Positions 1 to 35,027 of a stretch of DNA of 36,118 nucleotides are shown here, in pieces (position 1 is the stretch's first letter; each line of letters opens with the position of its first letter). Both the position numbers and the translations under genes were made by a program. This DNA is from a virus. Where the stretch lies: UHGV virus genome UHGV-0127759; one strand, given 5' to 3'. Under the pieces are notes generated by a model. The model ran no database searches, was not told where the DNA came from, and saw nothing but the letters and a program-made list of their open reading frames with translations.

Positions 1-211
1 ATTAAATGGATTGACAAATCCAAATCTTATTTATCCTGGTCAAGTTTTGAAAGTAAATGGATCAGTAGTAAGCAACGTTTACACAGTTCAATATGGTGAT
101 AATTTATCAAGTATTGCAGCCAAACTCGGTACTACTTATCAAGCCTTAGCTGCATTAAACGGACTATCAAATCCTAACTTGATTTATCCTGGTCAAACAT
201 TGAACTATTGA
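1..211 (+). CDS. C-terminal LysM repeats of the cell-wall hydrolase; 5'-partial here and most likely the continuation of the endolysin that starts at 35028 (wrap-around)
   Basis: Translation ...[20 protein letters not shown]...[44 protein letters not shown] shows two LysM repeats. The reading frame is continuous with the final codons of the window (..DYQALA + gt|a). Confidence 0.7.
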
Positions 212-360
212 TAGTTTTAATATAAAATAAGGATACACTTATTTAAATTCTCTTGAGTCGCCTTCCCAAAGGCGGCTCTTTTTCTAAAAAGCACTTGTAA
301 TAAAATATTCGATTTGGTTTAATTATAGTATATAAGTTTACTGTTAAAGGAGAAATAAGT

Positions 361-2175: not shown

Positions 2176-3357
2176 TTAAAAATTTACATAGCTACTGAAA
2201 GCATCTGTTGCTTCTTTAGTAACTTCATCAGAAACATGAGTGTAAGTATCCATAGTTATTTGTAAAGAAGAATGTCCTAAACGTTCTTGGATTATTTTAG
2301 ACCTAACATTATCTGATTCGAATAATAATGTTGCGTGGGTATGCCGAAAACCATGACAACCAATAGAATGTAAGTTAGCCTTTTCTGCCAATCTTTTGGA
2401 ACGTTGGTAAATGTCTTGACTTCGGAACATGGTACCATCAATTTTTGTAAAAATGAGTTGTGTTTTAAACCCACCTTTTTTCATTAAAGCCTCACGCTGT
2501 CTAAGTTTCCATTTTTTTAAGATATAAGCAGTCTTGTTATCAAAAGAAATTTTACGAATAGAATTGGAAGTTTTAGGATCGTTTATAGTCAATCCATTTG
2601 TACTGATAGCAGTAGTTTTATTTATATTAACTACCTGCTTTTTTAAATCAATATCATTCCAATTCAATGCTAAAGCTTCACCAACACGTATACCAGTAAA
2701 AGAAAGTAAGCGAAAAATAGCACAGTCTAAGTCAGCATAGTATTTTAGAACTAAACTTTCTTCTTTGGCTTGATTGGCAATGCTATCAGCTGTATTTAAG
2801 AAATGTTCCAGTTCGTCTTTTGTATAGAACTTTCTTTTTGTATTCTTTTCTATTTTCTTTAGTGAACTAGGCTTAGTTATTTTCTTAAATGGGTTTGAAT
2901 CTATTATTTCTAAACCAACAGCATAGTCACAAACACGAGAAGCATAACTCAAAAGTACTTTTCCCATTTCATTCTTTTTATACCATTCATTAACAGATTT
3001 TTGCACGATCTTGACTGTTAAACGCTCAAGTCGCATTTTCCCGAATGTGGGTAAAATGTGTTTTTTCATACGTCGTTCAGTAGCTATAAATGTGGATTCC
3101 CTAACTGTTTTTTTGTATTCGTCCAACCACATATAATAAACTTCTTCAAAAGTGGTTAAATGAGTATGCTCGTTAGCTAGATTTCCATTATCAAAATCTA
3201 ATTTTTTTTGATTAAGCTTGAGCTGTGCTTCTTTTTTTGTATTACAGTTTCTGATAGTGACATTAATTTGTTTTCCAGTTAAATAATCTACGCCTAAATA
3301 GGCAGTTACTTTCCAGTATTTTTTTCCTTTTTTTGTATATTGTTTAAAAGTTGCCAT
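2176..3357 (-). CDS. int: Tyrosine site-specific integrase
   Basis: The C-terminal catalytic region contains HGFRHTHATLL...GHSSLQITMDTYTHV (R..HxxR...Y). The N-terminal SAM-like domain is present. The RBS is GGAAAGGA. Confidence 0.95.
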   Translation of the reverse strand: MATFKQYTKKGKKYWKVTAYLGVDYLTGKQINVTIRNCNTKKEAQLKLNQKKLDFDNGNLANEHTHLTTFEEVYYMWLDEYKKTVRESTFIATERRMKKHILPTFGKMRLERLTVKIVQKSVNEWYKKNEMGKVLLSYASRVCDYAVGLEIIDSNPFKKITKPSSLKKIEKNTKRKFYTKDELEHFLNTADSIANQAKEESLVLKYYADLDCAIFRLLSFTGIRVGEALALNWNDIDLKKQVVNINKTTAISTNGLTINDPKTSNSIRKISFDNKTAYILKKWKLRQREALMKKGGFKTQLIFTKIDGTMFRSQDIYQRSKRLAEKANLHSIGCHGFRHTHATLLFESDNVRSKIIQERLGHSSLQITMDTYTHVSDEVTKEATDAFSSYVNF

Positions 3358-4283: not shown

Positions 4284-5048
4284 TTATTTAATTCGTAGTG
4301 GTTGACCAGGATAAAAAACAGAGTTGTCAATGCCTGGATTTAATGATAATAGTTGTTCTAAGGTTAAGCCATTTCTTTCAGCTACTTGTCGAGCTCCTTC
4401 ACCGCTTCGTACTTTATCATATACAGGTTGTTCAGATTCAGAGCTTTGAGGTTGTTCAATTACTGAAGATGATTGAGTAGATGGCAATGGTTGTTGTGAT
4501 GTAGAAATTTCCGTGTCAACAGCAGCTAATTCGGTGTACAGGTCTGTTAACTTATTTGCTTCAGCAGTATAAACATCTGTTAGTTTATTTGCCCAAGATT
4601 CATATAATGAATAGTCGTCTTTATTAGAAAGTTGTATGTTTGCCATTTCCGAAATTCCAGTATTTGAAATATCTGCTAATTTTCCTATTTTAGAGTTTAA
4701 AACCTCAGCTAATGCTGAAACATTGCCTTTTATAGGTTCTCCTTCATTTCGCAGTTCTTCAATCAATATAGGTGTAGTTGTAGTCAACTTTTGAGTATAA
4801 GTCTCTAAAATTTGGGAATAGGTAGACCCGCCTAATTCTTTTTGTGTTGCTTCATCTGTTTGTGTACTTGAATAATGTATAGTTGATGACTCACCACTTG
4901 AGCTATTAATTTTTTTAGAATCAGAAATATCTTTCTTTTCAGATGTAATTGAGGTAGAACTTGAGTTTTGCTTTGAAACCTGTTTAGTTTCGTTAGAACA
5001 AGCAGTCAGCAGTAATAATGATAAACCTAAAATAACAATTTTTTTCAT
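4284..5048 (-). CDS. Secreted lipoprotein with a Ser/Thr-rich linker, a duplicated ANKLTD(V/L)YT(A)E motif and a C-terminal LysM domain
   Basis: Signal peptide MKKIVILGLSLLLLTAC with an LTAC lipobox. C-terminal LysM (GLTLEQLLSLNPGIDNSVFYPGQPLRIK). The ATG at 5048 is preceded by a GAGGA RBS. Confidence 0.8.
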   Translation of the reverse strand: MKKIVILGLSLLLLTACSNETKQVSKQNSSSTSITSEKKDISDSKKINSSSGESSTIHYSSTQTDEATQKELGGSTYSQILETYTQKLTTTTPILIEELRNEGEPIKGNVSALAEVLNSKIGKLADISNTGISEMANIQLSNKDDYSLYESWANKLTDVYTAEANKLTDLYTELAAVDTEISTSQQPLPSTQSSSVIEQPQSSESEQPVYDKVRSGEGARQVAERNGLTLEQLLSLNPGIDNSVFYPGQPLRIK

Positions 5049-6326: not shown

Positions 6327-6596
6327 GTGGAAGTGATTTTAACTCCAGAAAGTGAAGCTTCTCTAAGAGATTTTGTACATGGAATTATTGTTGATGAAAT
6401 AGAAAAAGCACGGAGAGATACCGCAGTTGATAAGCGAGTCTTAAATCAAACAGAGATTGCAAAATATTTCAATGTATCCACAACAACAATAAGGGAATGG
6501 GAGAAGCTAGGTCTTCCACATGGATCAGTAAGTAAGCAAGGGAAGTTCTACGACAAAGAAGAGTGTCGCAGATGGCTTCTATCACAAAAAAGATAA
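6327..6596 (+). CDS. HTH DNA-binding protein (excisionase/MerR-like motif)
   Basis: LNQTEIAKYFNVSTTTIREWEKLGLPH resembles excisionase-family HTH domains. The RBS is AGGAGG. Confidence 0.5.
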   Translation: MEVILTPESEASLRDFVHGIIVDEIEKARRDTAVDKRVLNQTEIAKYFNVSTTTIREWEKLGLPHGSVSKQGKFYDKEECRRWLLSQKR

Positions 6597-13707: not shown

Positions 13708-13956
13708 TCAATTGTACATTAGTTCATTGCACCTGTCGTTTGCTTGAACGAGGGTACTGAATTTTTCAATGTCAATATCTAATATCGATAAACATAGTTC
13801 AATGTTTCTTAGTTCTTTTAAATTTAATACGGCGTAAAAATGTGGAATCAAAAAATTGAGAGGAGTAACTTTTTGCGGTAGATTTGCTTTAATACGTGAA
13901 GAATACAGCCGATAGTTCAAGCTATAAACTTTGACGGGATAAAAATTAGTATTCAT
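13708..13956 (-). CDS. Hypothetical protein, an independently transcribed minus-strand moron
   Basis: RBS AGGTG lies 6 nt before the ATG. Minus-strand terminators sit on both sides of it. Confidence 0.5.
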   Translation of the reverse strand: MNTNFYPVKVYSLNYRLYSSRIKANLPQKVTPLNFLIPHFYAVLNLKELRNIELCLSILDIDIEKFSTLVQANDRCNELMYN

Positions 13957-14069
13957 ACGAACACCTACTTTCTGTCACTATTTAAGAGTAACACGAAATG
14001 TTAGTAATGTCGGTTGCAAAATGTAAATATAAAGAAACCTTAACAAAAATATTTTAGATAGAGAAATAT

Positions 14070-14094
14070 AAAAAAAGCCAGCCGACCACTGGCT
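14070..14094 (-). terminator. Minus-strand rho-independent terminator
   Basis: AGCCAG-7 nt-CTGGCT followed by T7 on the minus strand. Confidence 0.65.
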
Positions 14095-14250
14095 GACTAA
14101 GAAGAATATTTTACCAGAAAAGTGGTAGCTTGTGATATGTGAGGTTACTTTGCCCCAAACATTGGTCACAATAAAAATATTTTATCATGAGTAAAGAAAG
14201 CTGCCAATAAAAAAAGCCGGATTCCTCCGACCGTGGGTAATATTCTCGAC
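14070..14250 (-). ncRNA. Candidate ~180-nt small RNA transcribed divergently from the arpU start region
   Basis: An extended -10 TGGTATAAT on the minus strand (complement of 14257-14265) and the intrinsic terminator at 14070-14094. The only ORF inside is a 25-codon ORF without an RBS. Confidence 0.35.
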
Positions 14251-14284
14251 ACGAATATTATACCATAAACGGGGGAATCAAAGG

Positions 14285-14752
14285 ATGGTACTTTTTGACG
14301 TAAAGAAATATGAAACACCAGATGCAAAGGATGTAGACATGGAACAAACTAAACATAACGTCAGTGTATTCTTGTCTGCGTACCTTGCTGCTAGATGTCG
14401 TGTTGGCCAGCCGAGGGAACCAAAAGTAACAGCTTCATTCTCTTTGGTTCCACCATCAACGGCCAATAACGTTTTCGAAGCCGAACAAATGTTAATCCAG
14501 AAAGAAGAAGCCCAAGAAGAGTTTGATTACCTTCATAAGCTTTTTGTTAGAGGTTATTCTGCGATTCAACATCCGCACAAACCAGATGTAACGGAGAGAA
14601 GAAAAAGAATCTTCTATGATCGCTATATCAACGGCAATCCAATCTATCTAGCAGCACAACGAAACTGTATCAGTGAAGAATCAGTGAAACAAGAATCTAA
14701 CATGATTATTGTTCAATTCGCTTCGGCACTGGAACTGGTTGCTTTTAAGTAG
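14285..14752 (+). CDS. ArpU/Alt-family late-gene transcriptional activator
   Basis: About 155 aa with a sigma-region-4-like C-terminus (IYLAAQRNCISEESVKQES). Its position, between the replication module and packaging, is typical of Alt/ArpU. Confidence 0.55.
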   Translation: MVLFDVKKYETPDAKDVDMEQTKHNVSVFLSAYLAARCRVGQPREPKVTASFSLVPPSTANNVFEAEQMLIQKEEAQEEFDYLHKLFVRGYSAIQHPHKPDVTERRKRIFYDRYINGNPIYLAAQRNCISEESVKQESNMIIVQFASALELVAFK

Positions 14753-14759
14753 CCATTTA

Positions 14760-14814
14760 TTACACTTTTTATACCTCTTTTATACACTTTATCTACACTT
14801 CATATACCTTTGAA
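14760..14814. repeat. Five phased 11-bp direct repeats with core TAC(A/C)CT, a candidate activator-binding array / late promoter
   Basis: ttACACttttt, atACCTctttt, atACACtttat, ctACACttcat and atACCTttgaa lie immediately after the arpU stop. Confidence 0.45.
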
Positions 14815-14972
14815 ACGGGTTATTATGATAGTGTCAAAAAAATAAGAAATGCGACACACTTACACAAATACATTAACGGAACGATTGCCTACTTATTTTT
14901 TTGATTTGAGATTACAAGGAAGTAAAAAAATTCTACTTTCTTCGTTTAGTCACTTGTGATCTCATTTAGATT

Positions 14973-15049
14973 CTCTCGCAAACCACCAATTATAAAACTA
15001 AAGAAGTGAGGTGAATTTCCTCTCTCTTTTTTCTACAGGTTTGCGAGAG
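14973..15049. repeat. 12-bp perfect inverted repeat CTCTCGCAAACC / GGTTTGCGAGAG with a 53-nt spacer, ending 4 nt before the tRNA
   Basis: The two arms are exact reverse complements. Confidence 0.6.
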
Positions 15050-15053
15050 TTAA

Positions 15054-15125
15054 TGGAGCATAGCTTAATCGGTAGAGCAGCGGTCTCGAAAACCGTTAGT
15101 ATAGGTTCGAGTCCTATTGTTCCAG
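15054..15125 (+). tRNA. tRNA gene, anticodon CGA (decodes UCG) but with a class-I 4-nt variable loop; identity uncertain
   Basis: Manual cloverleaf: acceptor TGGAGCA/TGTTCCA (one G-U pair), D-arm GCTT-AATCGGTA-GAGC, anticodon arm GCGGT-CTCGAAA-ACCGT, T-arm ATAGG-TTCGAGT-CCTAT, discriminator G. No CCA is encoded. Confidence 0.6.
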
Positions 15126-15205
15126 TAAGTGGCATAAGCTACTTAAATAATATAGATCGTCAATGAATGTTCGGACAAACAAATTGGCGCTACTACCTTT
15201 CACGA

Positions 15206-15235
15206 GGGCTGCATTTATATGCAGTCCTTTTTGTT
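15206..15235 (+). terminator. Rho-independent terminator after the tRNA
   Basis: GGGCTGCAT-TTAT-ATGCAGTCC followed by TTTTTG. Confidence 0.6.
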
Positions 15236-15400
15236 TGAGACAAAAATTGATACTTAAGGCTCTAGTTACAGAGGTAGCCAGAGTACTTTCTAAATAAACT
15301 TCTCTATTTGTCTTTTGGACAAATTTACGTATGAAGGCGCCTATTAATGTAGATAACTAAAATAAATCTACAAATATATAAAGAAAGGAAAAATAGTGAT

Positions 15401-15655
15401 ATGGAAGAATTTAATAAATTATTACAAAGCAACAATTATTCTCAAATAAAGATGGAGGAAAATAATATGTTTAAAAATGGAAAAATCTTGTCTGCTAAAG
15501 GAGTTATGATTAGTTACATTAACATTATGAATGGAAAAAATAGAAAACGAGATCAAAAAAAAGCTGCAAAAGATCTTTTAAAAATGAAGCAGCATTTAAT
15601 TAAAGAAGGGCTGTGGGATGCTAACGAGGCAAGAATATTAGACTTGTTAAGTTAA
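15401..15655 (+). CDS. Hypothetical protein
   Basis: 84 aa with an AAAGGAAAAA RBS. It is followed by a terminator. Confidence 0.45.
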   Translation: MEEFNKLLQSNNYSQIKMEENNMFKNGKILSAKGVMISYINIMNGKNRKRDQKKAAKDLLKMKQHLIKEGLWDANEARILDLLS

Positions 15656-15689
15656 TGTATATATTCCTTACCAAAGTTAAAAGTTCAAA

Positions 15690-15719
15690 AGAGATTGCTA
15701 AGTGCAATCTCTTTTTTTA
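15690..15719 (+). terminator. Rho-independent terminator
   Basis: AGAGATTGC-TAAGT-GCAATCTCT followed by T7. Confidence 0.7.
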
Positions 15720-15740
15720 TTTTGAAAGGAGGTTTGATTT

Positions 15741-16055
15741 ATGAATAAAAAAGAACAGATTAAAAAGCAGCAAGCACAGTTCTTAGAAATCATGAAGAAG
15801 GTTCGTGAAGAGAAAGATATAGATGCGCTTGCAGAATTGTTTATTGAAATCATTTCGGTATATGGGCTGAAGATGGATGAGACATCAGCATTACTTTATT
15901 ACGTTCAGAAAGAAACACTTGAAGCAGATCACAATGCACAGTTCTTAAAAGAACGGTTGAAACTTGATGTTAAGTCGCTAGGTATTGAAGGTGTGCTGCA
16001 AGTACAACGTGCGTTGGTTAACACTTACCTTTCTAATATTTCCAACAATGATTGA
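15741..16055 (+). CDS. Hypothetical protein
   Basis: 104 aa with an AAGGAGG RBS. Confidence 0.55.
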   Translation: MNKKEQIKKQQAQFLEIMKKVREEKDIDALAELFIEIISVYGLKMDETSALLYYVQKETLEADHNAQFLKERLKLDVKSLGIEGVLQVQRALVNTYLSNISNND

Positions 16056-16359
16056 TGTATCATCCAAACAAGCACGAGCAAAGTTCTATGGCTCATCAGA
16101 GTGGAGAAGATTAAGACAGCAATGTTTAGAGCGTGATCATTACGAATGCCAGTGGTGCAAACAAGAAGGTAAGTTAACAACCCAGTATGATTCTATTCTT
16201 GAAGTGGATCACATTAAAGAGTTGGAACATTATCCGCAGCATGCCTTGAATATAGACAACCTAAGAACATTGTGCAAGGACTGTCATAATAAACGGCACG
16301 GTAGATTTAACTATAGAGAATCGAAAAGAAAAAGAAAGTGGGATGATGAATGGTGGTAA
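16048..16359 (+). CDS. HNH endonuclease (packaging-associated)
   Basis: CxxC...EVDHIKEL...N...CKDCHNKRHG (HNH with a Zn finger). It lies just upstream of the cos/terS region. The start was chosen as the ATG at 16048. Confidence 0.8.
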   Translation: MIDVSSKQARAKFYGSSEWRRLRQQCLERDHYECQWCKQEGKLTTQYDSILEVDHIKELEHYPQHALNIDNLRTLCKDCHNKRHGRFNYRESKRKRKWDDEWW

Positions 16360-16537
16360 GCATGGAAGGAGTAAGAGCATCTGCGTTTTGCATGATTAAC
16401 AACCATCAACACAACGAAATAAATGAGAGGCTAGGTGTGAGATACATAGCACGAGCTGAGGTGTTTTTCCCACCTTGTAAATGGAAAGAACAGAGAAACG
16501 AAGTTGTGGAAAATGATTTGCAAAAATCAACCAAAAG

Positions 16538-16612
16538 TGGGGGATAACTTCCCCCCCGTCGAAATATTTTGCCCTAAAGTGGGGACTGCGGGAACCGGTG
16601 GATGGGGTCAAC
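16538..16612. other. GC-rich island between HNH and terS, a candidate cos site
   Basis: GGGGATAACTTCCCCCCCGTCGAAATATTTTGCCCTAAAGTGGGGACTGCGGGAACCGGTGGATGGGGTCAAC sits in an otherwise AT-rich genome. The HNH-TerS-TerL arrangement is typical of cos phages. Confidence 0.4.
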
Positions 16613-16664
16613 TGTCTAAAAATATACGTTAAATTTTTTTATAGGGGGGTGATTGCTATTGAAA

Positions 16665-16976
16665 ATGGCAGACTTGAAAAAACAGTTGATGAGTCAAATT
16701 GACGAAAACGATCAACTAGAAGTTGAAAAAGTCGAGAGATATCTTGATTTAGTAAAGCTTTATAAAAAAATGAATTCGTCTATTTCTAAGTATGGAACGA
16801 TTGTAGAGTTTGAAAACGGAGCGCAGAAATACTTAAAAATCAATCCAGCAATCGCCGAAAAAGTTAAAATTTCACGTGCATTGATTGCTTTAGGAAAAGA
16901 TCTTAACTTAGATGAATCAACAAAAATTGTGACTAGCGTTGATGATGATAATTATAGCGAGAGTGACTTAGTATGA
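16665..16976 (+). CDS. terS: Terminase small subunit (P27 family); alternative TTG start at 16653
   Basis: About 100 aa with YGTIVEFENGAQKYLKINPA, typical of P27 TerS. It overlaps the terL start. Confidence 0.7.
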   Translation: MADLKKQLMSQIDENDQLEVEKVERYLDLVKLYKKMNSSISKYGTIVEFENGAQKYLKINPAIAEKVKISRALIALGKDLNLDESTKIVTSVDDDNYSESDLV

Positions 16977-25896: not shown

Positions 25897-28800
25897 ATGA
25901 GTGGTGGAACACCGTTAGGGAACATGGTCATAAAGCTAGGCTTGGATAGTTCTGATTTCGGTCGTGGTGCAGCAAATGCTAAAAAAGAAGTTCGCTATTT
26001 AGCGAAAGAAATGCAAGCTAATGCAAAAATCGCTGATATGGCGGGCAATCAAATGGGCAAGCTTGGCACTCGTTTTGATGGCTTAACTAAAATCATTGGA
26101 GCACAAGAGAAACAAGTTGCTGCGCTGAAAAAGGCTTATGACGAATCTTTTGTAGATGGAAAAGCGACAGAATCCACCAAAAGGCTAGCAACTCAATTGC
26201 AAGATGCCAATGGAAAACTAGCAAATTATCGATCTCAATTAATTCAAACAGCTGGTCAGATGGCAGAAATGCAAGTCAAAACCACTGGTGCAACTGGTGC
26301 CATTTATAATGCCAGCGAAAAAATGATTTCTAGTGGGCAAAAAATGGAAAAAGTGGGCGGAGCCTTAACAAAAGGTATAACTTTGCCAATTCTCGCAGGA
26401 GCTGCAGCAGTAACAACGGCCGCTGTTAAATGGGAATCTGATTTTGCAGGTGTGAAAAAGACCAATGATGAAGTTGTTGATTCGACAGGTAAGGTTGTTT
26501 ACTCATACAAAGATTTAGAAAATGGTCTTCGTGGACTAGCCAAAGAATTACCTTCAAGTCACACGGAAATTGCAAACGTTGCAGAAGCAGCAGGGCAGTT
26601 AGGGATCAAAACTAAAAATGTAGTTGGCTTCACCAAGACAATGATTGATTTAGGCGAGTCAACGAACATGAGTGCAGAAGAAGCAGCAACTGCTTTAGCT
26701 CGATTGGCCAACATTACAGGAATGCCACAAACAGAATTTGATAAGTTAGGTTCGGTTATTGTTGATTTGGGTAATAATTTTGCGACAACCGAATCAGAAA
26801 TAACCGCAATGGGTTTACGTCTGGCAGGAGCTGGTCATCAGGTTGGCATGAGTGAAGCTCAAATCATGGGATTTGCGGCTGCATTGAGTTCTGTAGGGAT
26901 TGAAGCAGAAGCGGGCGGTTCCGCATTTTCTAAAGTAATGGTTCAAATGCAACTTGCTGTTGAAAATGGAGCCAATGCATTTGCGGGACTAGAGAGCTTA
27001 AGTCAACAGACAGGCGTATCTATGGAGCAGGTTTCTAGCGCTGTCAGAAATGGTGGTAAAGAGTTAAAAAATACTGCTGGGGCAATGGGATTAACTAGTA
27101 AAGAGTTAAAAACAATGCATAAAGAAGCCACGGATGCATCAGGGAAATTAAATGATTTTGCAGAAGTAGCAGGAATGTCTGCCGAACAATTCTCTAAAGC
27201 GTTTAAAGAAGATGCTTCAGGTGCTATTATCAAATTTATTGAAGGCCTAGGGAAAACGAAGGAGCATGGACAATCTGCAATTGCTGTTTTAGATGATATG
27301 GGAATAACAGAAGTTCGTCTTCGTGATAGTCTCCTTCGTGCCGCTGGTGCCAGTGATGTATTTAAAAGCGCTGTAGATCGTGGAACGAAAGCTTGGGGTC
27401 AAAACACCGCTTTAACAGAAGAAGCAAACAAACGATACCAAACTACCGAATCTCAATTAAAGATGCTTAAAAATGAAGCGGTAGATGTTGGGATTACGTT
27501 TGGTGGTCCATTAGTAAAAGCATTACGAGATGTGCTTCAAGCAACTAAGCCAATGATTAAAACCGTAACGAACTTAGCGGAATCTTTCTCAAATGCTAAT
27601 CCTAAAACACAGCAAACAATTGTTAAAATGATTGCATTAACTGCTGCAATGGGTCCTGCTATTAAGTTAACAGGCACTTTAACAAAGGGTGTAGGATTTT
27701 TAGGCAAAGGCTTTGTTGAAACAATGGCTGCTATGTCTAAAAAAAGAGCAATCGAAGATGTTACAAAAGCTTTTGCAGAAGGTAGTTCTGTTTCTATTGG
27801 ATTCGGAAAAGACATTGCTTCTTCTGGTTCGGCATTAGGAGGATTGACTGCTAAAATCGGAGGAACCACTACACAAATTGGTTCATTGACTAAAGGGTTT
27901 AGTTTATTGAATCCTTGGGTGTTAGGTGCAACTGCAGCGATTGGGGCAGGTGTAGCAGTGTGGAAACTCTGGGGAGAAGAGGCATGGAATAGTTCCCAAC
28001 GTGTTAAGCAATGGGGAACTGATGTCGGACGAGAAGTTGACAAAACCTTAAACGGGGTGCAAGACAAAACCAAAGCCGCAAATGGTCAGTTTGGCTTATT
28101 AAAAGATGGATTTAATCAATCAGATGCTTCTAAAATGGCAGAAAATTTTGAAGCAGCGGGTCAGTCTCTTGAAAAGTCTTTAAATAAAAAAGTAGATGGA
28201 TTGAATCAATTATTAAAGCAGTTACCAGGAACCGCTACAGACTCAATGAAAGAAATCATTGAGAATGAGAAAAAACTAAATCAGTCTGCTGTGGAAGAAA
28301 TCCAATCGAATAATAAGCAAATTCAAGAGATTAGACAAAGGGCTGCAAACGAAAATCGTCAATTGAGTGTTTCTGAAGCTCAAATGATTAGTGATTTATC
28401 AAAGAATACTGCGGAAGCTTACGTTAATACTCTGGATGTTTCGGCGGAACAAAAAAGAACTATTTTGAAATCAATGACTGGTGATGTAGCGAATGCTACG
28501 AAAGAAGAAGCAGAAATATGGTTAAAATCATTAGGAGAGCAAAGGAATGCATCACAGACTCATGCCGCTAAAATGAAAGAAGAGCAAAAAAAATGGTTGA
28601 AAGATTGGGGATATAACCTTGATGGTGAATTTGCTCAGAAGTATCTTGAAGAATGGGATAAAATAAACGAAACTACGACTGAAGGTTTTGATAACCAAAT
28701 GGCCGCCATTGTTGAGAAATTCCCTGAACTAAAAGATAAAATTCATTTGGCTTCTGGACAAGTAATAAAAGAGAGCGGAAATGCTTCACAATACCTTATT

Positions 28801-30648
28801 GAAGATAACGAGAAATTATTGGAGAATGTTACCAAAACAACAAATAAAGTTGCTGAAAATGCTAAGAAGAACGCTGAACAACTTAAATATGTTGGTAATG
28901 AAGCAAGTGAATATGGGAAAATGTGGAATAATCTTGTTCTTGATCCAAAAACAGGCGAAGTCAAAACCAATGCACAAGAAGCAGTTAACGAAGCTGCAAA
29001 TTCTGAAAAAGGATGGAACCAACTCCTATATGCTTCCAAACATGCCGACCTAAAAAGTAATGCTAAATTAATGATTGCCGAAGCAGCAATTGCTAACGGA
29101 AAATGGGACAGCATGACGTTTAAGGAACAACAAGCGCTTTTAGATACAAATGCCAAGAAGACTGTAACTCAGGCATTACAAGCCAACGGAAAATGGGACA
29201 AACTTAATTTTGAAGAGAAGAAGGCCATTCTGTATTCTAATACCCCTGAAAAAATGGCTGAAAATATGCTTAATCTTGGACTTTGGGAAGATTACAAGTT
29301 ACATGACAAAGAAATTAAAGCTGATAACAAAGAGTTTTTAGAAGTGCTTAGTGATTCACAAGAAAAAATTGTCAATTGGTCTAATTTACCAGATGATGTT
29401 AAAAAATTTTATGCAGATAATCAAGATTTACTGACAAAAATTTATGGATCAGAACGAGCCTTTAATGCTTGGAAAAATTTACCAGATGAAAGCAAACTGC
29501 TTTTAGCAAATAACACGGATGTGCTACAAAAGATTCTTTCTTCAGAAACATATCTAACAAATTGGAATAACCTTCCAATAGACCAGAAAAAAATGCTTGC
29601 CAATAATGATGATTTACTAACAAAGGTAATGAAATCAGAAGAAAGTATGAATGCGTGGAATTCATTACCTGATCCAGTAAAAAAAATGCTTGGTAATAAT
29701 GAAGATTTAAAAGCAAAAATAGCTGATGGAACATTAAGCGTGCAAACTTATGACCAAATAAAGCCACAATTAAAAAAATTACTCGGAGATGCTTCCAATG
29801 TATCAAATCAATCACAGGTAGGTATTCAAAACTTAAATGCATTTAACGCAAACAATCCAGCACAGAAAATACTACGTGGAGATTCTTCAAATGCACAAGC
29901 TGCAGCTCGACAAGGTGGCAATGCATTGAACACCTACAATGCCAATAATCCAGGGACGAAAAACTTGCGAGGAAATGCAGGTGGAGTTGTCGGTGCGGCT
30001 TCAAGTGGTAATAGTAGCTTAAATATTTTCGCAGCAAACAATCCAGTAGAAAAACTATTAAGGGCTAATGATCAAGCGAGTGGACCAGCATCTCAAGCGA
30101 AAAATGCAGTAAGTGACTTTAATTCTGGCCCTTCGGTAATTACCAAAACTTTGAACGTAGTAGCTAATTTAGGCGCTGGCGTAGCAAAAATTTTAGGGCT
30201 AGAAACAGGAACAAATAATCATATTGGTGGTCCGGCAATCGTCAATGACCAAAAAGGACGCACTTATAAAGAATTGGTGATTCCTAAAGGTGGCGTGCCT
30301 TTCATTCCAGAAGGTAGAAATGTATTCTTACCAGATTTACCAAAAGGATCAAAAGTAATCAAAGCTTCAGAAACAAAGAAACTAATTCCTCATTATGAAA
30401 ACGGCGTGGGAGTTCCGAGAAACTCTTCAGTTGTTAAAAATCTAATTGCTGTTCAAGATTCACATGAATCAAATGATTTTAGCGAACTTGCTTCTCTAAT
30501 GCGTGAAATGGTTTCTTACTTGAAAGACGGAAATATTAAAAACATGGAAGTAACACAATATATCACAGGTGCTGACACAAAAACACCGAGAGAAACAGCG
30601 ATTGAAACAAAACGCCAACTTCGTGACTTGGCTAGGGGGTTTAAATAG
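25897..30648 (+). CDS. Tail tape measure protein (1583 aa)
   Basis: TP901-like core region, hydrophobic TM segments mid-protein and extensive C-terminal tandem repeats. RBS AGGAGG. Confidence 0.9.
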   Translation: MSGGTPLGNMVIKLGLDSSDFGRGAANAKKEVRYLAKEMQANAKIADMAGNQMGKLGTRFDGLTKIIGAQEKQVAALKKAYDESFVDGKATESTKRLATQLQDANGKLANYRSQLIQTAGQMAEMQVKTTGATGAIYNASEKMISSGQKMEKVGGALTKGITLPILAGAAAVTTAAVKWESDFAGVKKTNDEVVDSTGKVVYSYKDLENGLRGLAKELPSSHTEIANVAEAAGQLGIKTKNVVGFTKTMIDLGESTNMSAEEAATALARLANITGMPQTEFDKLGSVIVDLGNNFATTESEITAMGLRLAGAGHQVGMSEAQIMGFAAALSSVGIEAEAGGSAFSKVMVQMQLAVENGANAFAGLESLSQQTGVSMEQVSSAVRNGGKELKNTAGAMGLTSKELKTMHKEATDASGKLNDFAEVAGMSAEQFSKAFKEDASGAIIKFIEGLGKTKEHGQSAIAVLDDMGITEVRLRDSLLRAAGASDVFKSAVDRGTKAWGQNTALTEEANKRYQTTESQLKMLKNEAVDVGITFGGPLVKALRDVLQATKPMIKTVTNLAESFSNANPKTQQTIVKMIALTAAMGPAIKLTGTLTKGVGFLGKGFVETMAAMSKKRAIEDVTKAFAEGSSVSIGFGKDIASSGSALGGLTAKIGGTTTQIGSLTKGFSLLNPWVLGATAAIGAGVAVWKLWGEEAWNSSQRVKQWGTDVGREVDKTLNGVQDKTKAANGQFGLLKDGFNQSDASKMAENFEAAGQSLEKSLNKKVDGLNQLLKQLPGTATDSMKEIIENEKKLNQSAVEEIQSNNKQIQEIRQRAANENRQLSVSEAQMISDLSKNTAEAYVNTLDVSAEQKRTILKSMTGDVANATKEEAEIWLKSLGEQRNASQTHAAKMKEEQKKWLKDWGYNLDGEFAQKYLEEWDKINETTTEGFDNQMAAIVEKFPELKDKIHLASGQVIKESGNASQYLIEDNEKLLENVTKTTNKVAENAKKNAEQLKYVGNEASEYGKMWNNLVLDPKTGEVKTNAQEAVNEAANSEKGWNQLLYASKHADLKSNAKLMIAEAAIANGKWDSMTFKEQQALLDTNAKKTVTQALQANGKWDKLNFEEKKAILYSNTPEKMAENMLNLGLWEDYKLHDKEIKADNKEFLEVLSDSQEKIVNWSNLPDDVKKFYADNQDLLTKIYGSERAFNAWKNLPDESKLLLANNTDVLQKILSSETYLTNWNNLPIDQKKMLANNDDLLTKVMKSEESMNAWNSLPDPVKKMLGNNEDLKAKIADGTLSVQTYDQIKPQLKKLLGDASNVSNQSQVGIQNLNAFNANNPAQKILRGDSSNAQAAARQGGNALNTYNANNPGTKNLRGNAGGVVGAASSGNSSLNIFAANNPVEKLLRANDQASGPASQAKNAVSDFNSGPSVITKTLNVVANLGAGVAKILGLETGTNNHIGGPAIVNDQKGRTYKELVIPKGGVPFIPEGRNVFLPDLPKGSKVIKASETKKLIPHYENGVGVPRNSSVVKNLIAVQDSHESNDFSELASLMREMVSYLKDGNIKNMEVTQYITGADTKTPRETAIETKRQLRDLARGFK
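29370..30060 (+). repeat. In-frame tandem repeats within the TMP: four copies of a ~40-aa W(N)NLPD..K..LANN.DLL.K repeat and three copies of a ~27-aa NAxNANNP..K.LRG repeat
   Basis: The repeats are visible at both the DNA and protein level. Confidence 0.7.
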
Positions 30649-31547
30649 TGAAACTAGAATTAGTTTATACGAATCAAAATGGGGAGCAACTCGTTTTTAA
30701 TGAGGAAGCTCCTTATTTTTTGCAAAATGTTGAAGGTCTAGAAGCGCCAGAAAATGTCGTGCTAGCAGAAGAAGTATTTGGAGAGGACGGTGCAAAAGTT
30801 GTTGGAATCCGTTTAAGCACTCGGAAACCATTGCTAGAAGGCACTTTAATTGGAAAAACAGAAGAAGAAATTTATCAGCTGCGCCGAGATATGATTCAAA
30901 AAATCGATCTAAAACAAACAGGTAAGCTAACACTTAAAGTCTATGACAAAGAGTATGAAACCGACGTTCTACCAATTCAAGCGCCTAGCTTCAAGCTGTA
31001 TGAAGATAATCCTTATAAGGTTGACGAATGGAACTTATTTTCTTTACAGTTTGAAGCATTTGATTCTTATTTCCGTGATGTGTCGTTTTATAACTCACTG
31101 GTTCCTTTGGCAACATTGAAGCCAACGCTTATTTTTCCAATGGTTTTTGTTCAAGGCGAGAAGCATACGTTTGGTCGCTTTGAATCAGGGAATATTGAAA
31201 AGATTGTAAACAATGGAGATGTGCAGGTTGGAGCAGTTTTTCATATGAAATGTGTAACAACCGTGACTGATCCGCAGATTTACGATGTGACAAAACAAAC
31301 CTTCTTTGGATTTAAAGGAACCTTTGAACCTGGAACAAGATTCGAACTTTCAACGGTACGTGGAAAGTTGTATGCGAAAAAAATTGTTAATGGTGTAGAA
31401 ACTAATGCTGTTCCAGAACGTATGGAGGGTAGTAGTTTCTTTCGATTATCTAAAGGAGATAACTATTTACAACTAAAAGCGGCCAACAATTCTCAAAATG
31501 GAATTACATGTGAAATGCAATTTACACCATTAGTTAGCGGGGTGTAG
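30648..31547 (+). CDS. Distal tail protein (Dit)
   Basis: 299 aa directly after the TMP. GTG start overlapping the TMP stop. Confidence 0.65.
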   Translation: MKLELVYTNQNGEQLVFNEEAPYFLQNVEGLEAPENVVLAEEVFGEDGAKVVGIRLSTRKPLLEGTLIGKTEEEIYQLRRDMIQKIDLKQTGKLTLKVYDKEYETDVLPIQAPSFKLYEDNPYKVDEWNLFSLQFEAFDSYFRDVSFYNSLVPLATLKPTLIFPMVFVQGEKHTFGRFESGNIEKIVNNGDVQVGAVFHMKCVTTVTDPQIYDVTKQTFFGFKGTFEPGTRFELSTVRGKLYAKKIVNGVETNAVPERMEGSSFFRLSKGDNYLQLKAANNSQNGITCEMQFTPLVSGV

Positions 31548-31549
31548 CT

Positions 31550-32674
31550 ATGGATTTTATGCCATTACCTTTTGTAGAGGTGTTTCGAAGAAAGTCTGGC
31601 TTTGATTATGAGTCAACGGCAGTTCTGGACATATGGAAATCAATGAGTGTCAAAGAAAATTTCAAGTCAGCCAATACTTTTGAAACGGTTGTTCTTTTAA
31701 AGTATATGCCAAAAGAATTAATGGACGAAGACACAGTGCTATTAATTAATAATTGCTTTTACTATATTGATTCTATTATTTGCGATGATTTGAGCAGTGG
31801 ATTAATTACAATTTCTGGGAAGTCTCTTTTTGCAAAATCTGGTAAGAGAATTGTTTATCGAATTTACAATCAAACAAAAAGACCAGAGCTGATTTGCTAC
31901 GATCACTTACGGAACGAAGTGGTCTCTCCGTCAGATGCTAAAAGAAAAATAAATTACTTATCTGTTGAACAACCGCCAGCAATTACTAATTCAAACATTA
32001 GTTATCAAAACAGTTATGGGAATGTTGAAGAAGAAATAGAGGGCCTGTGTGAAAGTTACAATTTTGGTTTTGACGAAATTCCTATCTCGAATGGGCGTAT
32101 TGGCTCAACATCAAACGGCCAAGTTGGAACAAATATTCGTTTTAGAAAAAGTGAAGATGTTTCTAGTGTAGTTCAATTTAGTGCAGAGTTTGAAAATGTT
32201 ACTAATGAATCATTAGAAAAGAACAACTATGATGAAGCGACTACAGCCCTTATTTATGGAGAAGGCGAAGGAAAAGCTCGTAAGCATACTCAAGTAAATA
32301 ACAATTTGAGTGGCCTCGAACGAAAAGAAATATACGTCGATGCTCGTGACTTACAACAGACTGTTGATGATGTAAAAATGCCAGATGCACAATATATTGC
32401 CACATTGCAATCAAGAGGAAAAGAAAAATTAACTGAACAACCAAGAGTTTTGGCATTGAATGGGACTATCAATTTGAATGATAGTCTTTTTGTTTATGGT
32501 CGAGATTATAAATTGGGGGATCGTGTAAAACGTATTTCTTCTTTTGGCTATTCAGATACAGTGGTTCTAAATTCTGTAACTCAGACTTGGGATGAGAAAG
32601 GCTACCATATTGACGGCGAATTCGGTAACCAAAGTAAAACAATTATTGATGTAATCAAGAGAAAAGGAAAGTAG
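31550..32674 (+). CDS. Tal-like baseplate hub protein (N-terminal hub domain only, no C-terminal lysin domain)
   Basis: 374 aa in the position of Tal. Confidence 0.5.
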   Translation: MDFMPLPFVEVFRRKSGFDYESTAVLDIWKSMSVKENFKSANTFETVVLLKYMPKELMDEDTVLLINNCFYYIDSIICDDLSSGLITISGKSLFAKSGKRIVYRIYNQTKRPELICYDHLRNEVVSPSDAKRKINYLSVEQPPAITNSNISYQNSYGNVEEEIEGLCESYNFGFDEIPISNGRIGSTSNGQVGTNIRFRKSEDVSSVVQFSAEFENVTNESLEKNNYDEATTALIYGEGEGKARKHTQVNNNLSGLERKEIYVDARDLQQTVDDVKMPDAQYIATLQSRGKEKLTEQPRVLALNGTINLNDSLFVYGRDYKLGDRVKRISSFGYSDTVVLNSVTQTWDEKGYHIDGEFGNQSKTIIDVIKRKGK

Positions 32675-32684
32675 GTGGTTATTT

Positions 32685-33740
32685 TTGGCGGAATTAAGTT
32701 TATTTTATGATGCCGTTTTGCAAGATGATGGCACATACGATCGTGCTTATACATCGGCAGACTGGGCAAAATACTTTGAAAATATCTTTCGCAATGGCGT
32801 CATGATGTCAGTCGGTGAAGCATTAAGAGTGACTGCAGCTGATTCTGTTGGAATGAGAATTGTTGTAAAAGCAGGTTCAGCAAGCTTAAAAGGTTATCAA
32901 TATATAAATACGTCTGCTTTTGCAGTACCTATTGACGTTGCTTCTTCAACACAAGATCGAACAGATTCAATTGTTGTTCGTCATGACTTGAACGCTAGAC
33001 AAGCTTATGTAGCAGTCAAAAAAGGCAATGTCTCTGTAGAGCGCTCAACAGAAGTTTATGAAATCCAACTAGCAACGGTCAAAGTACCAAGGAACAGTTC
33101 GGCGATTACTGCAGATTTAATCACAGATAAGAGATCAGATGCAAAAGTTTGTGGTTATTCAACACCTTTTGCCAATGTTTCTGTATCAGGATTAGAAGCA
33201 CAATATGAAGCAATGCTAAAAAAAATTGTAGAAACCAACAAGGCAAGTTATGAAAAAATCCTAAATGATTTTAAAAACTACGTTGCAAAAGCACAAACCG
33301 ATATGGATTCTAATATTGAAGAGATAATCCGTACAGGAAATGGAAAAGTAAATGCTTTTGATGTTTTAATTCATGAATGGTTTGCAGCTTTAAAAAATGA
33401 GCTAGATGCAAATCAAGCATCAAATTTACAGAATCAAATCAATGAAATGAAAGCTACTGAAGATTTACCAGCTATAGAGCATAATTTACTCGGTTATCCC
33501 AATGTACAAGTTTTGTATTGGGAATACGGTATTGGCCTATCAGGATTAGCTAATGAGCCAACAGGTCTAGGCGGTAGCAATGTGAAAAAGATTCCTCACA
33601 GTGTAGAATATCTTGATTTATTCAGTTTCAAAGTTAAAGTGCCAATGAACTTTAAAATGGTAAATCCAACAGTAACAAAAATAGATAGTCGAACTATTCG
33701 CTTTATTGAAGCATTTAAAGTTATAGAAATTAAATTTTAG
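32685..33740 (+). CDS. Baseplate / receptor-binding protein candidate
   Basis: 351 aa in the tail-tip module. Confidence 0.45.
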   Translation: MAELSLFYDAVLQDDGTYDRAYTSADWAKYFENIFRNGVMMSVGEALRVTAADSVGMRIVVKAGSASLKGYQYINTSAFAVPIDVASSTQDRTDSIVVRHDLNARQAYVAVKKGNVSVERSTEVYEIQLATVKVPRNSSAITADLITDKRSDAKVCGYSTPFANVSVSGLEAQYEAMLKKIVETNKASYEKILNDFKNYVAKAQTDMDSNIEEIIRTGNGKVNAFDVLIHEWFAALKNELDANQASNLQNQINEMKATEDLPAIEHNLLGYPNVQVLYWEYGIGLSGLANEPTGLGGSNVKKIPHSVEYLDLFSFKVKVPMNFKMVNPTVTKIDSRTIRFIEAFKVIEIKF

Positions 33741-33750
33741 GAGGAAAAGA

Positions 33751-34539
33751 ATGTATACATTTAAAAAAGGTGATGCAGACTATCAAGTCATGCTGAACGA
33801 AAACTTTAGCGAAATAACGGATGCTTTAGAAAATGGCGCACTGGTTTCTAAGAAAACCGTTATTAAGGCACAGGACTGGGATGAAATTTTAGACAAAGGA
33901 ATTTACACCGTCTTCGGTGCTTCTGGCGCAAATAGACCTTATTCGGGTGCAGCTTATGGTGCTTTAGTTGTTTATGCTGATAATACATTTGTAAGTCAAA
34001 CGTATATGTATAAAGGTGAAACATACACCCGTAGCAGACAAGGGAGCCCTGCCACATGGACACCATGGAATAAACTTCTTTCAGATAATGAACAACCATT
34101 TGAAGTCTATTTTGGAAGAGCAGAGGATAGTAGCGATGTCAATACAGGTTTCCAGTATCCTATCGGCAGTATCGTTGCTACTGATAAATATCATAAACCA
34201 GAAGATTTACCATTTTCGATTAGCGCTGATAAAAAGAAATTAACTTTTACTAAAACAACAACGATTCATGTTAGTGGTTCAGCGAAGTTTCATGGAAACT
34301 CTTCTGGAACAGATTATGCTTATTTTAAAATATTTTGGGGCGCTTCTAATGATCACATGATTCAATACGGTACTCCGACAAACACAGCAATCAATGTTTC
34401 AACAACGATTGGGGGAGAAAAAACTCTAACAATCAAAGCTGGGGATTCACTAAGATTTGAATTAGAGAGTCGACCAAACAAAAGTTTATTTAGAACACAG
34501 ATTGCTTCATTATCTATCAAAGAAGTGAAAAGTATCTAA
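33751..34539 (+). CDS. Baseplate / receptor-binding protein candidate
   Basis: 262 aa with a beta-rich C-terminus. It is the last structural gene before the holin. Confidence 0.45.
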   Translation: MYTFKKGDADYQVMLNENFSEITDALENGALVSKKTVIKAQDWDEILDKGIYTVFGASGANRPYSGAAYGALVVYADNTFVSQTYMYKGETYTRSRQGSPATWTPWNKLLSDNEQPFEVYFGRAEDSSDVNTGFQYPIGSIVATDKYHKPEDLPFSISADKKKLTFTKTTTIHVSGSAKFHGNSSGTDYAYFKIFWGASNDHMIQYGTPTNTAINVSTTIGGEKTLTIKAGDSLRFELESRPNKSLFRTQIASLSIKEVKSI

Positions 34540-34574
34540 TATGTTTCAAGTAGACATAAGTGGGAGGTGAGTTA

Positions 34575-34973: not shown

Positions 34974-35027
34974 AGCGGCTTGTGTCGTTTCTTTTTTTGT
35001 TTAAAAAAATAGGAAAGAGGTTTTTAA

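What the first reader, a model, noticed from the sequence alone, without database searches (positions are those of the whole stretch)
14753..15235. Late-regulatory block: five phased 11-bp TAC(A/C)CT repeats after arpU, a 12-bp inverted repeat, then a phage tRNA with anticodon CGA but a class-I (short variable loop) structure
The phased repeats at 14760-14814 resemble the direct-repeat activator sites of Alt/ArpU-dependent late promoters such as TP901-1. The tRNA at 15054-15125 folds well (GGTTCGAGTCC T-arm, standard D-arm), but its anticodon loop CTCGAAA gives CGA (a Ser UCG decoder) while the variable loop is only 4 nt. Bacterial tRNA-Ser normally needs a long variable arm for SerRS recognition, so aminoacylation identity is unclear. 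It could be a rare-codon supplier charged by another synthetase, a missense tRNA, or a tRNA-like element. A perfect 12-bp inverted repeat with a 53-nt loop ends 4 nt before the tRNA 5' end, suggesting a processing or leader structure.
Basis: partly seen in the sequence, partly recalled or inferred. Interest (0 to 1): 0.55.

Follow-up and report, generated by a model that had tools for sequence, protein, structure and literature searches.

The report
Phage tRNA-Trp with a mutated anticodon
The odd "serine" tRNA is an ordinary Enterococcus phage tryptophan tRNA that carries a single-base change in its anticodon in this genome only, and it sits behind a known type of activator-controlled late promoter, so the finding is explained and largely ordinary.

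Summary
All three observations are real: five 11-bp phased TACAC/TACCT repeats directly after arpU, a perfect 12-bp inverted repeat, and a well-formed 72-nt tRNA with anticodon CGA and a 4-nt variable loop.

The tRNA is not a serine tRNA. In 85 other copies of the same tRNA from Enterococcus genomes, IMG/VR contigs and metagenomes, 84 read CCA (tRNA-Trp), one reads CAA and none reads CGA. Two genomes are identical to the window over 2.77 kb except for base 15088, the middle anticodon base (C35 to G). The class-I shape is therefore simply the tRNA-Trp shape. C35 is a TrpRS identity base, so this allele is most likely a crippled, dispensable copy. A base-calling error cannot be excluded.

The repeats match the experimentally defined layout of ArpU binding sites in phage phiFL2A. 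They vary between 4 and 6 copies. Where the ArpU type differs, they are replaced by 3x TTGGCGG.

The inverted repeat is the last of three long hairpins in a conserved late leader. It shows compensatory changes and is kept in phages with no tRNA next to it, so it is not tRNA-specific.

Related phages carry Arg, Asn or Lys tRNAs in the same slot.

Interest is low: a new member of a known kind.

The parts
14285..14752 (+). arpU, the late-gene transcriptional activator (155 aa), last gene of the early/replication cluster
   Evidence: NCBIfam TIGR01637 phage_arpU, 48.7 bits against a cut-off of 43.1. The identical protein is indexed in 4699 blocks of the public assembly collection.
14756..14811 (+). 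Array of five 11-bp phased direct repeats (core TACAC/TACCT at 14761, 14772, 14783, 14794, 14805); inferred ArpU binding sites
   Evidence: TRF period 11, 5.3 copies. Unique in the window with 0 expected by chance. Relatives have 4, 5 or 6 copies, and the E. hirae phage EH-TP1 keeps the array. Prophages with a phiFL2A/phiEf11-type ArpU have 3x TTGGCGG at 11-bp spacing instead. The functional precedent is PMC3753634.
14824..14829 (+). Inferred -10 box TATGAT of the ArpU-dependent late promoter. There is no good -35; the last repeat occupies that position. The transcription start is inferred near 14836.
   Evidence: The block TTATTATGATAGTGTC is conserved in both repeat classes and in EH-TP1. 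It aligns with TGcTAATAT in phiFL2A. The consensus scan lists TTCATA-16-TATTAT at 14799-14826. The start site has not been mapped.
14836..14902 (+). Leader hairpin H1 (11-13 bp A/U stem) at the inferred 5' end of the late transcript
   Evidence: Inverted repeat I6, 13/13 complementary. MFE fold of 14836-15053: -50.6 kcal/mol, z=-4.4. Class-2 prophages, phiFL2A and EH-TP1 have hairpins of different sequence at the same place.
14907..14964 (+). Leader hairpin H2; its 3' side carries the conserved motif GTTTAGTCAC
   Evidence: Inverted repeat I2. MFE fold. The motif is kept across leader classes.
14973..15049 (+). Leader hairpin H3. The outer stem is the 12-bp inverted repeat (14973-14984 / 15038-15049). 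It encloses an inner hairpin at 15000-15029 that runs into a U6 tract at 15027-15032.
   Evidence: On 16 distinct relatives, 96.6% of cells pair and 4 outer-stem pairs change on both sides; slid controls give 44-67% paired and 0-1 such pairs. H3 is present without an adjacent tRNA in L001, L003, L006 and phiFL2A.
15054..15125 (+). tRNA gene with a tRNA-Trp body and anticodon CGA (15087-15089). Base 15088 (tRNA position 35) is G here and C in relatives. Discriminator is G73 and no CCA is encoded.
   Evidence: ARAGORN and Rfam tRNA, 68.2 bits. Phage Efs 1-1-1 is 99% identical across the cassette and reads CCA. All 14 tRNAs found at this position in 17 Enterococcus genome or metagenome loci read CCA. 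The census is 84 CCA, 1 CAA and 0 CGA among 85 other copies.
15126..15203 (+). tRNA 3' trailer with a small hairpin directly after the discriminator
   Evidence: Conserved together with the tRNA cassette up to 15236. A homologous trailer follows tRNA-Arg in phiFL2A.
15204..15236 (+). Intrinsic-terminator-like hairpin plus T-run that closes the tRNA cassette; the mosaic boundary lies just after it
   Evidence: Terminator scan: 11-pair stem, 5 G-C pairs, T-run. Similarity to Efs 1-1-1 ends at 15236.

Best explanation
The block is the late-promoter region of a temperate Enterococcus siphophage. ArpU, encoded just upstream, binds the five phased TACAC/TACCT repeats and activates a promoter that has only a -10 box (TATGAT, 14824-14829). 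The transcript starts near 14836 with a roughly 215-nt leader made of three long hairpins, and the 12-bp inverted repeat is the stem of the third hairpin. Next comes a cargo tRNA gene, which would be released by RNase P and RNase Z and completed by CCA addition. A leaky terminator follows, and transcription continues into the HNH, terS and terL late genes. The cargo gene is the tRNA-Trp found at this position in most related prophages. In this genome its middle anticodon base has changed from C to G, so tRNA finders translate CGA as 'Ser'. Bacterial TrpRS reads C35 directly, and the tRNA lacks the long variable arm that SerRS needs. The allele is therefore most likely a poorly charged, loss-of-function copy of a dispensable accessory gene. 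Any residual Trp charging would put Trp at UCG codons. Shown here: the tRNA-Trp ancestry, the one-base difference, its rarity, and conservation of the repeats and hairpins. Inferred: ArpU binding to these particular repeats, the transcription start, RNA processing, and the charging defect.
For: Ancestry. A 99%-identical cassette in phage Efs 1-1-1 has CCA, and the only difference inside the tRNA is at position 35. Seven of 10 loci encoding the identical ArpU, and 7 of 7 encoding the identical downstream 84-aa protein, carry tRNA-Trp(cca) at the same place. L014 and L018 are identical to the window from 13901 to 16672 except for 15088.

Rarity. The exact CGA 27-mer is absent from genome contigs and metagenome contigs. 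The census of other copies is 84 CCA, 1 CAA and 0 CGA.

Body type. In 36 independent species genomes, the same D-arm and anticodon-stem frame goes with CCA in 33. The discriminator G73 and the pairs G2-C71 and G3-C70 fit bacterial Trp identity (PMC9976931).

Charging. In the E. coli TrpRS-tRNA complex, C35 is read by three hydrogen bonds from residues conserved among bacterial TrpRS (PMC12135181).

Dispensability. Three of 10 prophages with the same ArpU lack the tRNA. Other alleles carry single stem mismatches. Clinical isolates have deleted the tRNA-Trp/ArpU segment of V583 prophage pp4 (PMC8158287).

Promoter. ArpU family membership is confirmed. phiFL2A has 3x TTGGCGG at 11-bp spacing right after arpU, and the repeats there were shown to be required for ArpU binding and terS activation. 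The repeat type switches together with the ArpU type while the -10 block is kept.

Leader. Folds give z-scores of -4.4, -5.9 and -6.0 in three divergent phages, and the inverted-repeat stem shows compensatory changes.
Against: There is no read-level evidence that 15088 is really G. No expression, processing or charging data exist for this tRNA. A second independent position-35 variant (CAA, in L076) hints that the site could be under some selection, although 2 of 6 singleton changes falling on one position has roughly a 19% chance (my calculation). The TACAC repeats differ in sequence from the phiFL2A repeats that were actually tested, and the window's ArpU is only distantly related to phiFL2A ArpU: tblastn with the window's ArpU did not recover it at E<=1e-5. 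Three terminator-like sites lie between the inferred promoter and terS, so read-through is assumed rather than shown.
Confidence: 0.7

Rival explanations
1. The G at 15088 is a sequencing or assembly error, and the real phage carries a normal tRNA-Trp(CCA).
For: It is the only difference from two other genomes across 2.77 kb. The allele was found in no other sequence in three collections or among 85 other copies. The window's own terS variant occurs in only one other contig, so no independent copy of this exact phage was available for comparison.
Against: Substitution errors are rare in finished assemblies compared with real SNPs among Enterococcus prophages. Real single-base variants of this tRNA exist in other contigs, including another at position 35. 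The site is not in a homopolymer run.
Confidence: 0.2
2. The anticodon change is adaptive. The tRNA-Trp body with CGA might be kept as a missense suppressor that inserts Trp at UCG. Alternatively it might be a decoy or escape variant against an anticodon-targeting nuclease, or a way to silence a costly tRNA.
For: The rest of the tRNA is intact, and A36-A37-A38 is retained, which suits decoding of U-starting codons. A second independent change at the same position, CAA, exists in gut-metagenome contig L076.
Against: It is a singleton allele. All 40 UCG codons in the window's ORFs are Ser or other non-Trp codons in relatives, and none is UGG, so there is no phage-internal Trp-to-Ser lesion to suppress. 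UCG usage is low and equal in early and late genes. C35 is a direct TrpRS contact. The recurrence at position 35 is not statistically significant.
Confidence: 0.07
3. It is a genuine serine tRNA (UCG decoder) with an unusual class-I architecture, charged by SerRS.
For: The anticodon is CGA. G73 and G2-C71 are also features of bacterial tRNA-Ser (PMC9976931).
Against: There is no long variable arm, whose size is the major serine identity element (PMC9976931). All but one of its 85 homologues are tRNA-Trp(CCA), from which it differs by a single base.
Confidence: 0.02

Closest known systems
tRNA-Trp of E. faecalis V583 prophage pp4 (EF_tRNATrp2), annotated beside the ArpU-family gene EF_2024
   Same: Both are a tRNA-Trp gene placed next to an ArpU regulator gene in a temperate Enterococcus phage (PMC8158287). 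The same arrangement, with CCA, is seen in 14 of the 17 genome or metagenome loci fetched here.
   Different: The window's copy has G instead of C at anticodon position 35. I could not fetch the V583 sequence itself, so base-for-base identity with EF_tRNATrp2 was not checked.
ArpU-dependent terS (late) promoter of E. faecalis phage phiFL2A, Ltr superfamily (Quiles-Puchalt et al. 2013, PMC3753634)
   Same: The activator gene ends the early cluster and direct repeats follow its stop codon at 11-bp spacing. A long structured leader then leads to a cargo tRNA, a terminator-like hairpin and terS. The H3 hairpin and the tRNA trailer are homologous.
   Different: The repeats are 5x TACAC/TACCT here against 3x TTGGCGG in phiFL2A. 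The ArpU proteins are only distantly related. The cargo is tRNA-Trp rather than tRNA-Arg(ACG). phiFL2A has about 390 nt of extra leader. Binding was tested only for phiFL2A.
Alt / P-late of lactococcal phage TP901-1
   Same: From my own knowledge, not checked here: a phage activator that binds a series of direct repeats upstream of a late promoter lacking a -35 box.
   Different: The activator family and host are different, and no sequence relationship was tested. phiFL2A is the much closer precedent.
Anticodon-mutant tRNA-Trp suppressors such as E. coli su7 (tRNA-Trp CUA)
   Same: Both have a tRNA-Trp body with a single substitution at position 35 that changes the codon read and weakens or redirects aminoacylation. 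The amber tRNA-Trp is charged with Gln (PMC9976931).
   Different: su7 is a selected nonsense suppressor with a known phenotype. Here the new anticodon reads a sense codon, no selection is evident, and charging is unknown.

Membership tests
Bacterial tRNA-Trp | Canonical class-I cloverleaf with a short variable loop | tested here: met
   Rfam tRNA, 68.2 bits, full length. The variable loop is 4 nt.
Bacterial tRNA-Trp | Anticodon CCA (C34, C35 and A36 are identity elements) | tested here: not met
   The window has CGA, whereas 84 of 85 homologous copies have CCA. By descent it is a tRNA-Trp gene; by anticodon it no longer qualifies.
Bacterial tRNA-Trp | Discriminator G73 and acceptor pairs G2-C71 and G3-C70 | tested here: met
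   Read from the sequence. The identity set is taken from PMC9976931. Pair 1:72 is U-A rather than A-U, and pair 4:69 is A-U; some relatives have G-C there.
Bacterial tRNA-Trp | Aminoacylation by TrpRS | not testable with these tools
   Only inference is possible: C35 is contacted by three conserved TrpRS residues (PMC12135181).
Bacterial tRNA-Ser | Long variable arm (class II), the major SerRS determinant | tested here: not met
   The variable loop is 4 nt. The determinant is as described in PMC9976931.
Bacterial tRNA-Ser | Serine anticodon (NGA or GCU) | tested here: met
   The anticodon is CGA, but SerRS does not use the anticodon for recognition.
Ltr/ArpU-dependent late promoter | [quoted passage not shown] | tested here: met
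   TIGR01637, 48.7 bits against a cut-off of 43.1. The gene order is replication genes, arpU, HNH, terS, terL.
Ltr/ArpU-dependent late promoter | Direct repeats immediately after the activator's stop codon, upstream of terS | tested here: met
   The array starts 4 nt after the stop codon. terS lies 1.9 kb downstream on the same strand.
Ltr/ArpU-dependent late promoter | Repeat sequence specific to the cognate activator | tested here: met
   TACAC-type repeats go with this ArpU, and also with the 87%-identical ArpU of the E. hirae phage. TTGGCGG repeats go with the phiEf11/phiFL2A-type ArpU. Both share the same -10 block.
Ltr/ArpU-dependent late promoter | Activator binds the repeats and is required for late transcription | not testable with these tools
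   This was shown for phiFL2A only (PMC3753634).
Rfam cis-regulatory or leader RNA families | A match to any curated covariance model over 14753-15053 | tested here: not met
   Apart from the tRNA, nothing scored more than 16.6 bits, far below any family's gathering score, even with E-values up to 10 allowed.

The most novel reading that the evidence does not exclude
The CGA allele is real and expressed from the late promoter, and it keeps enough TrpRS recognition through C34, A36 and G73 to be partly charged. The phage would then recode a fraction of UCG (Ser) codons as Trp during late infection. More broadly, recurrent position-35 changes in this prophage tRNA (CGA here, CAA in L076) would reflect selection, for example escape from or decoying of an anticodon-directed host nuclease, rather than decay.
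Probability: 0.06. Interest if true: 0.6.

Novelty: new member of a known kind. Interest (0 to 1): 0.2.

Why it matters
The main value is as a corrected annotation. Any pipeline would call this gene tRNA-Ser(CGA), and the mismatch with its class-I shape looks like an exotic identity switch, but one comparison with relatives shows a tRNA-Trp with a point mutation. The survey also documents something useful for Enterococcus phage biology. ArpU-type late promoters share a modular layout: activator-specific phased repeats, a common -10 box, a three-hairpin leader, an exchangeable tRNA cargo (Trp, Arg, Asn or Lys) and a leaky terminator. This gives clear targets for EMSA, reporter and RNA-processing experiments. 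If the CGA tRNA were charged, it would be a natural sense-codon missense tRNA in a phage, but the evidence points away from that.

Tried and rejected
- My first IMG/VR pattern contained one A too many and found nothing. That result is void, and the search was repeated correctly.
- Exact-match scans for the CGA allele in genome contigs and metagenome contigs found nothing.
- Looking up the window's own terS variant, to find the source genome or a sister genome, gave a single contig that starts at terS and does not reach the tRNA.
- Rare-codon supply was rejected. UGG is about 1% and UCG about 0.5% of codons in both early and late genes.
- Missense suppression of a phage Trp-to-Ser lesion was rejected within the phage. 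None of the 40 UCG codons corresponds to UGG in relatives. Host genes could not be tested.
- Rfam gave no family for the leader or the inverted repeat, nor for the extra roughly 390 nt in phiFL2A. A weak FMN hit of 16.5 bits there is chance.
- The phiFL2A repeat sequences are not given in the paper's text and no supplement is held. I read them from the phage genome instead.
- The primary paper on E. coli tRNA-Trp identity (PMC329181) is not held, so the fold-loss in charging for C35 mutants is not quoted.
- I considered claiming a common helical phase between the repeats and the -10 box across classes. I dropped it because the gaps are 13, 21 and 24 nt.
- The host chromosomal tRNA-Trp could not be fetched because the collection scans were exhausted, so the phage and host tRNA-Trp were not compared.

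Full report
**Context.** The window is a temperate Enterococcus siphophage. Its closest database DNA matches are Enterococcus phages whose host is E. faecalis. The gene order around the finding is replication genes, arpU (14285-14752), a 650-nt non-coding stretch, two small ORFs, an HNH endonuclease, terS and terL. The 155-aa protein passes the NCBIfam ArpU model (TIGR01637, 48.7 bits, cut-off 43.1). The two ends of the window join inside the lysis region of relatives, so the window is probably a complete, circularly permuted phage genome.

**Checking the observation.**
- Tandem Repeats Finder reports an 11-bp period with 5.3 copies at 14756-14811.
- Three consecutive TACMY cores at 11-bp spacing occur only there in the window, with none expected in 100 shuffles. 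The cores are TACACT, TACCTC, TACACT, TACACT and TACCTT, so the consensus is TACAC/TACCT rather than TAC(A/C)CT.
- The 12-bp inverted repeat (14973-14984 / 15038-15049) is perfect and ends 4 nt before the tRNA.
- ARAGORN and Rfam both find one tRNA at 15054-15125. It has anticodon CGA, a 4-nt variable loop, discriminator G73 and no encoded CCA.
- A terminator-like hairpin with a T-run at 15204-15236 ends the block.

**What the tRNA is.** Phage Efs 1-1-1 is 99% identical to the window across 14710-15236, and ARAGORN calls its tRNA Trp(cca). The only difference inside the tRNA is position 35, C there and G here.
- I fetched contigs that encode the identical ArpU. Seven of 10 have tRNA-Trp(cca) at the same position and three have no tRNA.
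- All seven contigs that encode the identical downstream 84-aa protein have CCA.
- Two of those genomes (L014, L018) are identical to the window from 13901 to 16672 except for base 15088, the middle anticodon base.
- Exact-match scans for the CGA version found nothing in one-genome-per-species contigs or in JGI metagenomes.
- Scans that left the anticodon free, and then the whole 5' half free, gave 85 other copies of this tRNA family: 84 CCA, one CAA (gut-metagenome contig L076) and no CGA.
- In 36 unrelated bacterial genomes the same D-arm and anticodon-stem frame goes with CCA in 33.

The same pairing of a tRNA-Trp with an ArpU gene is annotated in V583 prophage pp4 (EF_tRNATrp2 beside EF_2024; PMC8158287).

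**Consequence of the change.**
- Bacterial tRNA-Trp identity rests on G73, the anticodon and the top of the acceptor stem (PMC9976931).
- In the E. coli TrpRS-tRNA complex, C35 is read by three hydrogen bonds from Lys274, Thr225 and Asp226, residues conserved among bacterial TrpRS (PMC12135181).
- The window's tRNA keeps G73, G2-C71, G3-C70, C34 and A36 but loses C35.
- SerRS depends on the long variable arm, which is absent.

My inference is that the allele is poorly charged, and that any residual charging would be with Trp and would misread UCG. Three results argue against an adaptive role:
- UCG is 0.5% of codons in both early and late genes, and UGG about 1% in both.
- None of the 40 UCG codons in the window's ORFs corresponds to UGG in relatives, so there is no phage-internal Trp-to-Ser lesion to suppress.
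- The gene is dispensable. It is absent from 3 of 10 sister prophages, it has been deleted in clinical isolates, and several other alleles carry single stem mismatches.

The second position-35 variant (CAA) is worth noting. However, with six singleton changes over 72 positions, a coincidence at some position has about a 19% chance (my calculation). I cannot tell a real mutation from a base-calling error without the reads. I rate a real mutation as the more likely of the two.

**The repeats.** In E. faecalis phage phiFL2A, ArpU was shown to be essential for late transcription. It binds direct repeats that lie immediately after arpU. Replacing the three 7-nt repeats abolished activation, mutating two or more abolished the gel shift, and swapping repeat regions swapped specificity (PMC3753634). 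The phiFL2A genome has TTGGCGG three times at 11-bp spacing right after the arpU stop codon. Among the fetched loci I found two classes:
- The window's ArpU type is always followed by TACAC/TACCT repeats. Most loci have five copies; some have four or six. Six copies follow the 87%-identical ArpU of E. hirae phage EH-TP1.
- A strong ArpU of the phiEf11/phiFL2A type (TIGR01637, 132.7 bits) is followed by 3x TTGGCGG.

Several loci of both classes share the same downstream block TTATTATGATAGTGTC. Repeats that change with the activator while the core promoter stays the same are what binding sites should look like. The last repeat ends 13 nt before TATGAT (14824-14829), which is where a -35 box would sit.

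**The inverted repeat and leader.**
- From the inferred start near 14836 to the tRNA, the RNA folds into three long hairpins: H1 14836-14902, H2 14907-14964 and H3 14973-15049. The fold energy is -50.6 kcal/mol with z=-4.4. The 12-bp inverted repeat is the outer stem of H3, which encloses a smaller hairpin running into a U6 tract.
- Across 16 distinct relatives, 96.6% of cells in H3 pair and four outer-stem pairs change on both sides. Class-2 prophages have CACTCACAAATC/GATTTGTGAGTG. Slid controls give 44-67% pairing and at most one such pair. These changes stem from only two or three lineages, so the support is real but thin.
- EH-TP1 has an unrelated 14-bp perfect stem at the same place, and phiFL2A has a 15-bp one. 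Their leaders also fold far better than shuffles (z=-6.0 and -5.9).
- H3 is present where no tRNA follows (L001, L003, L006) and in phiFL2A, where the tRNA lies about 390 nt further on.

H3 therefore belongs to the late leader, not to the tRNA. Its role is unknown. It could be a processing site (for example for RNase III), it could stabilise the RNA, or it could attenuate transcription. H1 at the very 5' end looks like a 5' stabiliser. Both ideas are inference only. No Rfam family matches the leader.

**The cassette.** Similarity to Efs 1-1-1 stops at 15236, just after the terminator. Similarity to IME_EF3, which lacks the tRNA, stops at 15051, just after H3. The tRNA, its trailer and the terminator therefore form an exchangeable module. 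The same slot holds tRNA-Arg(ACG) in phiFL2A, tRNA-Asn(GTT) in phiEf11 and tRNA-Lys(UUU) in EH-TP1. The phiFL2A cassette shares the trailer and terminator layout. In phiFL2A the whole arpU-terS interval, which contains a tRNA and a terminator-like hairpin, drove ArpU-dependent reporter expression. Read-through of such hairpins from the late promoter therefore has a precedent.

**Verdict.** The promoter interpretation is supported. The tRNA mystery dissolves into a singleton C35-to-G allele of a common, already annotated prophage tRNA-Trp. It is a new member of a known kind and of low interest. The only exciting reading, a partly charged missense tRNA or selection on position 35, is not excluded but has little support.

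Noticed in passing
window 1-212 and 26550-36115: The two ends of the window are contiguous in relatives: L165 aligns to 26550-36115 and then continues into 2-209. The window therefore looks like a complete, circularly permuted phage genome of about 36.1 kb, with the junction in the lysis region.
   Followed up: partly
L184 (phiFL2A) 3033-3107; L185 (phiEf11) 3157-3229; L164 (EH-TP1) 4603-4677: The slot between the ArpU late promoter and the packaging genes holds different tRNAs in related phages: Arg-ACG, Asn-GTT and Lys-UUU, against Trp-CCA here. The Arg cassette in phiFL2A also shares a homologous 3' trailer and terminator, which suggests a modular tRNA cargo site.
   Followed up: partly
L076 (OBUO01000050.1), tRNA on the minus strand near 6513-6539: A second anticodon variant of the same tRNA, CAA (C35 to A), occurs in a gut-metagenome Enterococcus prophage. 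That prophage also has only four repeats in the ArpU array.
   Followed up: partly
window 14756-14811 and relatives: The copy number of the 11-bp repeat is polymorphic among otherwise near-identical prophages. Most have 5 units, some have 4 or 6, and changes are always by whole units.
   Followed up: yes
window 15000-15032, 15204-15236, 15687-15722: Three terminator-like hairpins with U/T-runs lie between the inferred late promoter and terS, and the scan found no consensus promoter on the + strand between 15236 and 15400. Late transcription must therefore read through them or be antiterminated.
   Followed up: no
window 14947-14956 (GTTTAGTCAC): This short motif in hairpin H2 is kept in the leaders of class-1 prophages, class-2 prophages and phiFL2A even though the flanking sequences differ. 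Its function is unknown.
   Followed up: no
L184 (phiFL2A) about 2645-3030, also L006: About 390 nt of extra non-coding sequence sits between hairpin H3 and the tRNA in phiFL2A-type leaders. It matches no Rfam family; a 16.5-bit FMN hit is chance.
   Followed up: partly
window 14065-14210, minus strand: There is a weak Rfam hit to Enterococcus sRNA Ref1C (28.8 bits against a gathering score of 90, E=0.21) that includes a strong hairpin, GTCAGCCAGTGGTCGGCTGGC. It lies in the gap upstream of arpU, next to an 82-aa minus-strand ORF that is called in relatives.
   Followed up: no
L171, L175, L177, L180; L005; L029; L079: Several copies of the prophage tRNA-Trp carry single changes that weaken a stem: G30 to A in four contigs, an acceptor mismatch in L005, a D-stem mismatch in L029 and U1-G72 in L079. 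This is consistent with weak purifying selection on an accessory tRNA.
   Followed up: partly
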